In this document: piece after piece, positions 47,528 to 50,865 of the stretch
Numbering within the stretch: the stretch's first letter is position 1
How the letters are laid out: the number at the start of each line of letters is the position of its first letter
Assembly (NCBI GenBank): GCA_964610875.1
Contig: CAZSWP010000021.1
Location: 1 to 62,841, forward strand
Origin: an uncultured archaeon
GTDB taxonomy: Archaea; Asgardarchaeota; Thorarchaeia; Thorarchaeales; Thorarchaeaceae
Direction of reading: 5' to 3'
DNA: 62,841 nt
Translations under genes and position numbers: made by a program
Notes under the pieces: generated by a model
What the model was told of the DNA's origin: nothing
Databases searched by the model: none
What the model saw: only the letters and a program-made list of their open reading frames with translations

Positions 47528-48795
47528 AAATACGTGATACGCTCTCTTATTCATTCGGTGCTATTAGACTGAGAAAAGTGCGTTCTGGGCTTACTACTCT
47601 TGGAATAGTGATCGGGATTGCTGCAATTGTTGCACTAATGTCTTTTACTGAGGGTTTTGAGGTTGCAATCACAGGTCAATTCCAAGAAGGGTTCTCAACC
47701 GATACTGTAACAGTATCAGCAGGGAGTGGTAGCGCATTTGGAGGATTTGGTGGAGAAACTGATAGCGATTTTGTACTTTATGCAAATGACACAGAACTGT
47801 TGAATGAGTTGGATGGTGTTACGGAATCTGCTGCTACATTAAGTAAGAGTGTCACAGTTGAATTCGAGAACTATGATAGGATATTATCGATGACCGGTGT
47901 AGATTTCCAACTGTATGCAGACCTCTATTCTACCTTCACAGCGGAAGTAGGAGAGATACCTGAGAATCCGTCTAATGAGTCTGCAGTCATTGGTTACAAT
48001 ATCTATGATCCCTATGGAAATGGAACTCTCTCTGTTGAAGTTGGAGATTCTCTAAATGTATATTATACAGTCCGTAATGGTACTGAATTAGTTCCAATCA
48101 ATATATCGGTCACTGTTGTCGGTGTCTTAGAAGAAATAGGCTCTTTTGGTTTCGGCCCTTCCGATTCTGGTATCTATATTCCCATTGAAACAGCAATTGA
48201 CTATTATGATACTGAAGAAGTTAGCCAGATAGTCGTTAAGTTGGAAAGTGATGATGATGCATTCATTGAACAGGTATCAGACGATATCGAAGAATTATTC
48301 CATAATGAAGTCACTGTCACCTCTCCATCAGCGATATTGGATACTTTATCATCAATTCTAGCCACTGTTGAACTTCTACTTGCAGGAATTGCTGGAATTT
48401 CACTCCTTGTTGCGGGCATTGGAATTATGAATATCATGATTGTATCCCTAATGGAACGTACTCGAGAGATTGGGATTTTGAAGGCACTTGGTGCAAAAGC
48501 TCATACTGTCCTTGCGGTATTCTTGGCTGAAGCGTTACTTATTGGTGTGATTGGTGGAAGTCTGGGTATTATGGTTGGAATACTCTTGGCTAATCTCTTT
48601 TCAGGAGGTCTGGGTGGATTTGGTGGCATGCCTGTAATAACCAATTCTACTTCTATGATGATTGCTCCTGTCGTGACACCTACTCTTGCAATAGAGGCTC
48701 TCTTTTTTGGTATTATCGTGAGTGTGATATTCGCACTGTATCCAGCATGGCGTGCTTCGAAATTGACTCCTGTTGATGCATTGAGACATGAATAG
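47524..48795 (+). CDS. ABC transporter permease (MacB/FtsX type)
   Basis: RSGLTTLGIVIGIA, extracellular domain, GIMNIMIVSLMERTREIGILKALGA, YPAWRASKL.PVDALRHE. Confidence 0.95.
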   Translation: MKIRDTLSYSFGAIRLRKVRSGLTTLGIVIGIAAIVALMSFTEGFEVAITGQFQEGFSTDTVTVSAGSGSAFGGFGGETDSDFVLYANDTELLNELDGVTESAATLSKSVTVEFENYDRILSMTGVDFQLYADLYSTFTAEVGEIPENPSNESAVIGYNIYDPYGNGTLSVEVGDSLNVYYTVRNGTELVPINISVTVVGVLEEIGSFGFGPSDSGIYIPIETAIDYYDTEEVSQIVVKLESDDDAFIEQVSDDIEELFHNEVTVTSPSAILDTLSSILATVELLLAGIAGISLLVAGIGIMNIMIVSLMERTREIGILKALGAKAHTVLAVFLAEALLIGVIGGSLGIMVGILLANLFSGGLGGFGGMPVITNSTSMMIAPVVTPTLAIEALFFGIIVSVIFALYPAWRASKLTPVDALRHE

Positions 48796-48805
48796 ACTCG
48801 CTCCT

Positions 48806-48850
48806 ACCCACACCTCACATCGAGGCGTGGGTGCATTCTTTTTTCTCTCT
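48806..48850. terminator. 11-bp hairpin (possibly bidirectional terminator)
   Basis: ACCCACACCTC 48806-48816 / GAGGCGTGGGT 48822-48832, followed by a T-tract on +; the single A.C mismatch is G.U on the minus strand. Confidence 0.65.
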
Positions 48851-48851
48851 A

Positions 48852-49075
48852 GTCGGAGCACTTGTTTTACGGAAAGGTCTGAGCTGTCCTAAGCCAGTTA
48901 TCCGAGATAATATACCCGAGGCAACTCTTGTCCCAGTGGGAGCTTCTCAAGAGTAGGGCCGCCACACCGTTCATTGTAACTTGTACAAACTTGGACACCA
49001 GAGTGATGTACCTCCATAAACGGTAATGGATCGTACTCTGTGAGGTTATTCTATGTGTCTGGTCAACCTCACAAT
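48852..49075 (-). ncRNA. Candidate structured ncRNA of unrecognised family (alternatively a small ORF with a structured leader)
   Basis: GC-richer intergenic stretch with at least five stems and a 9-bp loop pseudoknot; mismatches resolve as G.U only on the minus strand. Confidence 0.5.
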
Positions 49076-49251
49076 ACTATGATTATCTTTTGCTATACAA
49101 AGACCTACAGATGTACATTCTTTATTCAATCATTCACTAAAGAAATGTCCAACTTTGACCAGATCTCTTGTAACTGTTGGCAACCCTCTTTTTTACTTGA
49201 TAACGAAGGTTTAAACATGTAATGCTGAAGTATTCCTAACTCGATAATAAG

Positions 49252-50865
49252 ATGGGCTGTAACATAATGAACTCCACTTCTAGAAGTAGGGCGAAAAACT
49301 ATCCCGTTGTATCAAAAATTCAAGCAGCAAAGAATTTTCTGGCACAGTATAGGTCAGATTTCAATTTACTTCTTGCAGCAACAGTAGCAGTTTCTTTGAC
49401 ATCTTTTCATTACCTCTGGACCATGTTTCAATACACTGGACCTGGTTTCACAATAGATGACTCTTGGATTCATTTTGTCTATGCTCAACGAATCTTTCAA
49501 GGAATACCATGGCAATATTCTCCTGGCTATCCTAGTACTGGATCAACAAGTCCACTATGGTCTGTGATTCTTTCTCTACCTTTTTTCCTATCACAGGAAA
49601 CCAATACCATAATTCTGATGGTCTATTTGATCTCTATCATATTCTATATTGCTTGCACATTCTTAGTGGGAAAATTGATACAATATGTAACTGAAGCTAG
49701 TATATGGGGATATGTTGGAGTTCTTGGATTTATCCTCATCCCAAGGAATACTTGGCTTATGTTATCAGGAATGGAAACTCCATTATTTGTATTCATGCTA
49801 CTTTTGGGCTGTTTCGTGCTCAATTCTGAAAACCACAAGACTGATTTCGTTATTGGGGTGATAATTGGACTTGCTTTCCTATCAAGACCTGAGGGAGGAA
49901 TTATACTGGGCTTTGCAACAGGAGTCCGTTTCCTCTACCTTCTTATTTCAAGGAATATCGATATTGAACGTCTAGTAGCTCATGCTATTATTCCCATGGT
50001 TACATTGATTGTAGCTTCACCATGGATTATTCATTGCTTGCATGTCACTGGCCTTCCACTCCCTGATACATTCTATGTTAAAGCACATGTTCCACAAGCA
50101 TATGAAATCGAAGCATGGAATTTCTGGTGGAATCTTCTCTCAATATCAATGCCTTTCCTCCTATTCGGTACTTTTTCTGGGATTATCCTCTTCTTCAAAA
50201 AACAACCTTATCCATGGATTCTAGCAGTGATGTTGACGCTACTATATCGTCTATCAAGTCCATATGCAGCATTGATTAATAATTTGAGATATCTCGTTCC
50301 AGTCTTTCTTCTTATATTTGTCAGTGCAATTGCGGCCGTTGGTATCATCATTCAACAAGTTCAAAGAAAACTCAAAAAACCTGACATCAATCTTAACCTT
50401 GAAGTAATAGCTATTATTATCACAGTATTCATGTTGATTATTCCATTGATTTCTGGTTATTCTTCTCAATCAATATACTATGCAAAGGCTGTTAGAACCG
50501 TAAATGAACAACATGTTGTAATAGGAAAGTGGCTTAATGAAAACACATCCCAAGATGCGGTCTTTGCTTCTCACGATGCTGGTGCTTTGGTGTATTATGC
50601 AAATCGAACATTCATTGACATTGTAGGTCTCGTAAGTCCAGAGATTGCTCATGGAAATATGACAACTCAAGAGCTTCTCCAATACCTTAAGGATCGCAAT
50701 TGTAGCTATATCGTATCTTTTCCTGGCTTGATTAGTGTGTGGGCAAGACACCTCTCTGGTGCTTATGTTGTTGAACTCTCTGTATATGTGGAGGATCATG
50801 TAGGTGGGGGTCGACCAATGATGAATGTCTATCGCATACTTTGGAATCAAGTAGACTTGCCTTAG
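49252..50865 (+). CDS. GT-C-fold membrane glycosyltransferase (polyprenyl-phosphate-sugar dependent)
   Basis: TIDDSWIHF in the first external loop, GSTSPLW, SGMETPLF, LSRPEG, RYLVP, DAGAL..DIVGL; multi-TM. Confidence 0.8.
   Translation: MGCNIMNSTSRSRAKNYPVVSKIQAAKNFLAQYRSDFNLLLAATVAVSLTSFHYLWTMFQYTGPGFTIDDSWIHFVYAQRIFQGIPWQYSPGYPSTGSTSPLWSVILSLPFFLSQETNTIILMVYLISIIFYIACTFLVGKLIQYVTEASIWGYVGVLGFILIPRNTWLMLSGMETPLFVFMLLLGCFVLNSENHKTDFVIGVIIGLAFLSRPEGGIILGFATGVRFLYLLISRNIDIERLVAHAIIPMVTLIVASPWIIHCLHVTGLPLPDTFYVKAHVPQAYEIEAWNFWWNLLSISMPFLLFGTFSGIILFFKKQPYPWILAVMLTLLYRLSSPYAALINNLRYLVPVFLLIFVSAIAAVGIIIQQVQRKLKKPDINLNLEVIAIIITVFMLIIPLISGYSSQSIYYAKAVRTVNEQHVVIGKWLNENTSQDAVFASHDAGALVYYANRTFIDIVGLVSPEIAHGNMTTQELLQYLKDRNCSYIVSFPGLISVWARHLSGAYVVELSVYVEDHVGGGRPMMNVYRILWNQVDLP

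What the first reader, a model, noticed from the sequence alone, without database searches (positions are those of the whole stretch)
48852..49075. Unannotated, pseudoknotted ~220-nt structured element on the minus strand: candidate novel ncRNA
Seen (plus-strand coordinates): stem TGTGAGGTT 49039-49047 / AACCTCACA 49065-49073; stem CAGAGT 48999-49004 / ACTCTG 49035-49040 with inner TCCA/TGGA; its loop (49017-49025) pairs over 9 bp with 48965-48973 as a pseudoknot, with two pairs that are G.U only on the minus strand; long-range TGTCCTAAG 48885-48893 / CTTGGACA 48990-48997; ACTCTTG 48924-48930 / CAAGAGT 48948-48954; TTGTA/TACAA; TTATC/GATAA. It ends at an 11-bp hairpin and no gene follows on that strand, so it is not a leader. 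I could not match it to tRNA, SRP, RNase P, common riboswitches or small ribozymes. Inference: a free-standing structured RNA.
Basis: partly seen in the sequence, partly recalled or inferred. Interest (0 to 1): 0.75.

Follow-up and report, generated by a model that had tools for sequence, protein, structure and literature searches.

The report
Mini IS607 transposon carrying guide-RNA scaffold
The folded stretch is the right half of a 221-base, gene-less jumping element, present in dozens of copies in this Asgard archaeon, that keeps a promoter-like box and the guide-RNA scaffold of a TnpB nuclease; it is a variant of a known kind of element, not a new class of RNA.

Summary
The stems are at the stated coordinates, but the boundaries are wrong. 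Window 48966-49186 (minus strand) is a 221-nt non-autonomous IS607 element. It has six near-identical full copies and about 50-60 relatives in this genome (Thorarchaeota, by the labels of relatives), fixed GGGT...GGT ends, and scarless empty sites in related genomes. Its left end matches those of IS607 tnpA elements.

Its 3' 110 nt (49075-48966) lie about 25 nt behind a conserved TATA-like box. They share the hairpin, terminal pseudoknot and long-range stem found at the 3' end of a 730-aa TnpB gene family (55 of 58 loci), with compensatory changes. The mini-elements add their own 5' module (a hairpin and a strongly covarying stem).

The 11-bp hairpin is probably the terminator of the plus-strand ABC operon.

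Best reading: a mobile standalone TnpB guide cassette that targets its own empty site. Expression and TnpB loading are untested. This scan found the same family before, in this genome and others.

The parts
48966..49186 (-). Non-autonomous IS607 mini-element, 221 nt including the fixed terminal letters (GGGT at 49186-49183, GGT at 48968-48966)
   Evidence: Six full copies at 98.6-100% identity with unrelated flanks; contigs of three runs diverge at the same two positions; 61 related copies with fixed ends
49146..49186 (-). Left end: GGGTTGCC start plus two motifs 10 nt apart (49162-49156 degenerate, TTGGACA 49152-49146); inferred TnpA binding sites
   Evidence: Same left end upstream of IS607 tnpA at G000:C18:16147 and 60599 and in Thorarchaeota tnpB elements; binding itself not tested
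49094..49100 (-). TATA-like box (TTGTATA; TTATATA in most relatives)
   Evidence: Found 56-61 nt before stem P2 in 54 of 59 scored copies from several genera
49039..49073 (-). P1 hairpin, found only in the mini-elements (core 49071-49067 with 49045-49041); its loop carries GACAC (49059-49055), complementary to GTGTC (48998-48994)
   Evidence: Hairpin forms in most subfamilies. The loop pairing shows only one-sided G.U changes, so it is suggestive only
48999..49040 (-). P2 stem, 49040-49035 with 49004-48999, found only in the mini-elements
   Evidence: 4 of 6 pairs change on both sides, 97% of cells paired; 42 of 50 distinct copies keep 6/6 pairs across many sequence variants
49013..49030 (-). 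P3 hairpin (49030-49026 with 49017-49013); its loop ACCGTT (49024-49019) pairs with the last six bases 48971-48966, the omegaRNA pseudoknot
   Evidence: Shared with tnpB-linked ends: P3 100% and pseudoknot 96.8% paired in 26 tnpB ends; 93% and 89% in 30 mini-elements
48983..49011 (-). P4 long-range stem, 49011-49007 with 48987-48983, crossing P2
   Evidence: Column pair 80/107 is TA:7, GC:22, CG:1, 100% paired, and the top clean pair of an unbiased scan; all five pairs change on both sides in tnpB ends
48966..48998 (-). Right end: two motifs 10 nt apart (48997-48991, 48987-48981), inverted relative to the left-end motif, then ACAATGAACGG and a fixed T
   Evidence: T follows in 50 of 51 exact ends and 60 of 61 copies
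48946..48965 (-). Host flank that would be read as the ~20-nt guide
   Evidence: Inference from IS607 TnpB rules (PMC10711439; 10.1101/2023.11.20.567912); flank letters are random across copies
48852..48945 (.). Unique GC-rich intergenic flank, not part of the element
   Evidence: No copy in own genome, none in 85 family genomes, fold z -0.77 for 48852-48965
48805..48848 (+). Hairpin plus T tract, probable terminator of the ABC (MacB/FtsX) operon that ends at 48795
   Evidence: Fold z about -5; terminator-like hit; permease domains

Best explanation
A gene-less IS607 mini-transposon that is also a standalone TnpB guide (omegaRNA) cassette. SHOWN: it is a dispersed mobile element that inserts at GGGT without a target duplication; its ends match those of larger elements that encode an IS607 serine recombinase and a 730-aa TnpB with intact RuvC residues; its right end keeps the three helices of the tnpB-linked RNA end, plus an extra covarying 5' module behind a conserved TATA-like box. 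INFERRED: TnpA from the large elements moves it in trans by recombination at the GG(T) core. The TATA box drives a ~110-nt scaffold that reads ~20 nt into the flank. TnpB supplied in trans binds this RNA and cuts the empty allele (GGGT followed by the flank), but not the filled site (CGGT). Repair from a filled copy then restores the element after excision. The added P1/P2 module probably replaces the 5' context that the tnpB mRNA supplies in the parent element. Odds: element identity about 0.97; omegaRNA-derived scaffold about 0.9; still a working trans-acting guide about 0.6.
For: Repeat with sharp ends. Fixed ends with random flanks in 61 copies. Empty sites in three related genomes hold one GGGT (G021, G028, G018). 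Two IS607 tnpA genes over the NF033518 cut-off, with the same left end. The model built from mini-elements alone hits the 3' end of tnpB in 55 of 58 loci. Covariation 0.204 vs 0.125 in mini-elements and 0.279 vs 0.147 in tnpB ends, 0/500 shuffles, slid controls far lower. G.U pairs imply RNA rather than DNA pairing. TATA-like box at a fixed distance. RuvC D498/E610/D703 invariant in 12 TnpBs. The RNA occurs in 17/26 own-family genomes and 0/124 others; 13 of the 17 and 0 of the 9 without it have this TnpB (kin are not independent). Published IS607 rules fit: GG core, G-rich TAM, fixed right-flanking base inside the scaffold, essential pseudoknot (PMC10711439; 10.1101/2023.11.20.567912; PMC6188088).
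Against: No transcript, binding or cleavage data. The 730-aa TnpB scores below the curated TnpB cut-offs (56.5 vs 100 bits for NF040570; 21 vs 350 for IS607_TnpB) and is uncharacterised. No tnpB-linked end reached the score of full mini-elements (24-73 vs 80-120 bits), so compatibility of the remodelled scaffold with TnpB is assumed. The one complete tnpB in this assembly ends in a slightly different right end (CAATCAACGG). Parts of the right end are also constrained as transposase sites.
Confidence: 0.8

Rival explanations
1. Passive mini-transposon (MITE): only the DNA ends matter, and the RNA structure is a relic of the parent's right end.
For: No expression data. Right-end motifs double as inferred TnpA sites, and the GACAC loop motif resembles them. 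Some copies have broken pseudoknot pairs. Four genomes hold the RNA without a detected tnpB.
Against: P2 and P1 are absent from tnpB-linked ends, so they cannot be relics, yet P2 shows many compensatory and G.U variants. The TATA-like box keeps its spacing while the DNA around it diverges.
Confidence: 0.12
2. The remodelled RNA has left its guide role: it acts as a TnpB decoy or regulator, or serves another protein, with the extra pseudoknotted 5' module doing a new job.
For: The 5' module is conserved across genera and was not seen next to tnpB. Mini-elements outnumber tnpB genes about 40 to 2 in this assembly.
Against: The 3' core, its spacing and the fixed terminal T are unchanged from tnpB-linked ends, and co-occurrence with this TnpB is strong.
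Confidence: 0.06
3. A self-splicing or self-cleaving RNA that makes insertions harmless (IStron-like), or the first reader's free-standing 220-nt ncRNA.
For: 16 of 38 full copies lie inside ORFs. Crossed helices are typical of ribozymes.
Against: In-ORF copies show no strand bias (9 sense, 7 antisense) and are depleted against 85% for random GGGT sites. No Rfam ribozyme or intron hit.
Confidence: 0.02

Closest known systems
IS607-family transposons with TnpB and right-end guide RNA (ISXfa1, PMC10711439; C. botulinum CboIStron, 10.1101/2023.11.20.567912; ends in PMC6188088)
   Same: GG-type core without target duplication, G-rich target, short repeated motifs about 10 bp apart near both ends, fixed right-flanking base, loop-to-3'-end pseudoknot, guide taken from the flank.
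   Different: No tnpA, tnpB or group I intron; only 180-230 nt; own archaeal TATA-like box; target GGGT; cognate TnpB is 730 aa and below the curated family cut-offs; extra P1/P2 module.
Mobilised standalone omegaRNAs of OMEGA systems (Altae-Tran et al. 2021, as summarised in PMC10691335)
   Same: Effector-less, transposase-less, multi-copy guide loci in genomes that also hold the effector.
   Different: Here archaeal and IS607/serine-recombinase type, 40-60 copies in about ten subfamilies, with a scaffold remodelled relative to the effector-linked one; trans activity not shown here.
RAGATH-18-derived reRNA of IS607 TnpB (ISFba1, PMC11061315)
   Same: IS607 TnpB guide with stem-loops and pseudoknots.
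   Different: No Rfam match to RAGATH-18 or any other family; shorter scaffold (110 vs 187 nt); different target motif.
Palindrome-associated transposable elements (PATEs) of IS200/IS605
   Same: Gene-less derivatives that keep the ends of a TnpB-family IS (mentioned in 10.1101/2023.11.20.567912).
   Different: PATEs use Y1 transposase hairpin ends; this element has IS607 ends.

Membership tests
IS607-family element (non-autonomous) | Matching GG-type core at both ends, scarless insertion without target duplication | tested here: met
   GGGT...GGT in about 60 of 61 copies; empty orthologous sites hold a single GGGT
IS607-family element (non-autonomous) | Short repeated motifs near both ends, imperfect subterminal inverted repeat | tested here: met
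   Two motifs 10 nt apart at each end, inverted between the ends; as described in PMC6188088
IS607-family element (non-autonomous) | Cognate IS607 serine recombinase with the same ends | tested here: met
   Two tnpA genes, NF033518 175 and 183 bits vs cut-off 110, behind the same left end
IS607-family element (non-autonomous) | Excision and integration by TnpA | not testable with these tools
   Needs a transposition assay
TnpB omegaRNA / reRNA | Scaffold at the right end, homologous to tnpB-linked ends, with variable flank behind it | tested here: met
   Model R1 hits 55 of 58 tnpB 3' ends; alignments A1 and A2
TnpB omegaRNA / reRNA | Pseudoknot between a hairpin loop and the scaffold's 3' end | tested here: met
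   96.8% paired with one double change in tnpB ends; 89% paired in mini-elements
TnpB omegaRNA / reRNA | Cognate TnpB with intact RuvC triad in the genome | tested here: met
   731-aa ORF at G000:C18:22509-24704; D498, E610, D703 invariant; below the curated TnpB cut-offs
TnpB omegaRNA / reRNA | Expressed, bound by TnpB, guides cleavage next to a TAM | not testable with these tools
   Needs RNA-seq and biochemistry
RAGATH-18 or any Rfam family | Covariance-model match at gathering score | tested here: not met
   No hit; best E 0.22, far below gathering
IStron (intron-bearing IS) | Group I intron core and sense-strand bias inside genes | tested here: not met
   No intron match; 9 sense vs 7 antisense in-ORF copies

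The most novel reading that the evidence does not exclude
Thorarchaeota mini-IS607 elements evolved a dedicated, promoter-driven, multiply pseudoknotted ~110-nt guide scaffold, distinct from the one in tnpB mRNA. Dozens of gene-less copies would then each program a scarce, oversized TnpB in trans to defend their own insertion sites, giving a natural compact single-guide architecture for an untested Asgard nuclease.
Probability: 0.5. Interest if true: 0.55.

Novelty: new variant of a known kind. Interest (0 to 1): 0.33.

Why it matters
It explains a recurring 'novel ncRNA' call in Thorarchaeota as a transposon-derived guide RNA. The role of standalone omegaRNAs is stated to be unknown (PMC10691335). 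This family offers a direct test of whether gene-less elements survive by borrowing both TnpA and TnpB. It also predicts the target motif (GGG plus fixed T), the scaffold boundaries and a promoter-driven scaffold for an uncharacterised 730-aa archaeal TnpB.

Tried and rejected
Rfam at gathering and E-value thresholds and ARAGORN: nothing relevant. Flank 48852-48965 as a separate conserved RNA: no homologue; weak hits were chance matches inside genes. Splicing of in-gene copies: no strand bias. Guides aimed at other sites: no 12-nt guide match behind GGGT elsewhere in the assembly. Expression: no RNA holder listed. Empty allele of this exact site: no joint in three contig sets and no exact match in metagenome contigs; these blanks prove nothing. 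The other TnpB-like class in the genome (560-600 aa) has different 3' ends and is not the partner. PDB search gave only weak TranC hits. The first related-loci run with a single protein failed; the alignment run worked. Literature searches for Thorarchaeota with TnpB, and for IS607 MITE guide RNAs in archaea, returned no paper. The P1-loop/GTGTC pairing has no double-sided change and stays tentative.

Full report
Observation. The complementary stretches I checked are at the given coordinates, and the loop 49017-49025 pairs with 48965-48973 over nine positions on the minus strand. As a 224-nt unit the region folds no better than shuffles and has no Rfam or tRNA match. It lies between an ABC permease gene ending at 48795 and a 537-aa ORF starting at 49252, both on the plus strand.

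The real unit is a repeat. A search of the own genome showed that window 48966-49186 occurs as six full copies at 98.6-100% identity with unrelated flanks, plus dozens of more distant copies that share the minus-strand 3' end. Contigs from three microbial-mat runs leave the window sequence at the same two positions. The relatives form subfamilies of 180-230 nt. Across 61 copies the left edge reads GGGT and the right edge GG plus a fixed T, while the flanks are random. The remainder has no copy in the genome, no homologue in 85 family genomes, fold z -0.77, and stems at chance level. The closing hairpin with its plus-strand T tract is best read as the ABC operon's terminator (inference).

It is an IS607 derivative. 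Orthologous empty sites in related genomes hold a single GGGT where the filled allele has GGGT...GGT, so insertion leaves no target duplication. The genome encodes two IS607 transposases over the NCBIfam cut-off. Each lies about 70 nt behind a left end like that of the mini-elements. One begins an 8.6-kb element that ends in a 731-aa TnpB-like gene followed by a matching right end. Relatives of this TnpB are labelled Thorarchaeota; several carry the same left end, with or without tnpA. The taxonomy of the window is inferred from these labels. IS607 elements are described as having GG termini, short repeated motifs and no target duplication (PMC6188088), G-rich targets (10.1101/2023.11.20.567912), and a fixed right-flanking base that belongs to the guide scaffold (PMC10711439). 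All of this fits.

The structured half is a TnpB guide scaffold. Twenty-six tnpB 3' ends share a hairpin (P3), a pseudoknot from its loop to the last six bases, and a long-range stem (P4): 95% of cells paired, covariation 0.279 vs 0.147 in shuffles. The mini-elements keep these helices with the same 11-nt spacing before the pseudoknot strand. They add a 5' hairpin (P1) and a stem (P2) that crosses P4; overall covariation is 0.204 vs 0.125. P2 keeps 6/6 pairs in 42 of 50 distinct copies through many double changes and G.U pairs, and an unbiased column scan recovers P2, P3 and P4 pairs among its best clean pairs. These shuffle controls ignore relatedness, so they are not probabilities. A further pairing of the P1 loop with the base run after P2 is possible but has only one-sided support. 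A model built from mini-elements alone matches the tnpB 3' end in 55 of 58 loci at 24-73 bits, against 80-120 bits for 42 full copies in this genome. It finds the RNA in 17 of 26 own-family genomes and in none of 124 others searched. The loop-to-3'-end pseudoknot is reported as required for IS607 TnpB activity (PMC10711439; 10.1101/2023.11.20.567912).

Mechanism. Shown: mobility, ends, target, homology to tnpB-linked RNA ends, selection on RNA structure, a conserved promoter-like box, and a TnpB with invariant RuvC residues. Inferred: TnpA moves the element in trans; the RNA runs about 20 nt into the flank (48965-48946 here); TnpB uses it to cut the empty allele (GGGT plus flank) and spares the filled one (CGGT); repair from a filled copy keeps the element in place, as shown for CboIStron. 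Not shown: transcription, loading and cleavage. Rivals are a passive MITE, a decoy or repurposed RNA, and a splicing element. The last is disfavoured because in-gene copies show no strand bias and are depleted (16 of 38 vs 85% expected).

Novelty. Mobilised standalone omegaRNAs are already described (PMC10691335). I found no paper on this archaeal IS607 version or on its added 5' module, so I rate it a new variant of a known kind. My reading was recorded before consulting earlier notes. The scan had already reached the same conclusion for other copies in this genome and in other Asgard genomes; these notes are not independent support. Interest 0.33.

Noticed in passing
G000:C2:158611 onward; C15:76658 and C61:13140 (minus): An IS110-like transposase element is inserted at one fixed site inside the right end of the 221-nt subfamily (between the two end motifs), seen in three contig fragments: one mobile element appears to target another.
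   Followed up: partly
L037:647-9230 (G000:C18:16147-24729) and L038: Large IS607 elements carry a giant cargo ORF (1779-aa open frame in L038; split into 471 + 1154 aa in L037) between tnpA and tnpB. It has no Pfam or NCBIfam hit, and homologues lie in 37 of 69 tnpB loci.
   Followed up: partly
G000:C78:1602-3290, C3:148802-150565, C3:15854-17677, C37:33088-34758, C16:30975-32651: A second TnpB-like class (560-600 aa); several loci have a downstream GTTCACTCA-like motif, which resembles the aCas1-associated Asgard TnpBs of PMC10691335. One mini-element (C3:138636) sits inside a remnant of such an end.
   Followed up: no
G000:C2:111565 and 15 other copies: 16 of 38 full copies interrupt ORFs, most with frameshifting lengths; at C2:111565 an intact paralogue exists at C3:18205.
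   Followed up: partly
G000:C13:57417-57883: Two mini-elements of different subfamilies lie back to back, left ends facing, 56 nt apart.
   Followed up: no
L110 and L136 (G003, G108): One insertion is shared at the same site by two genomes about 90% identical and is absent from two others of the genus, so copies persist across species splits.
   Followed up: partly
window:48852-48945: GC-rich unique intergenic stretch of unknown origin between the terminator and the element.
   Followed up: partly
window:54631-56982: Topoisomerase VI subunit A-like ORF of 783 aa with a long lysine-rich N-terminal extension and repeated helix-hairpin-helix-like motifs (by eye).
   Followed up: no
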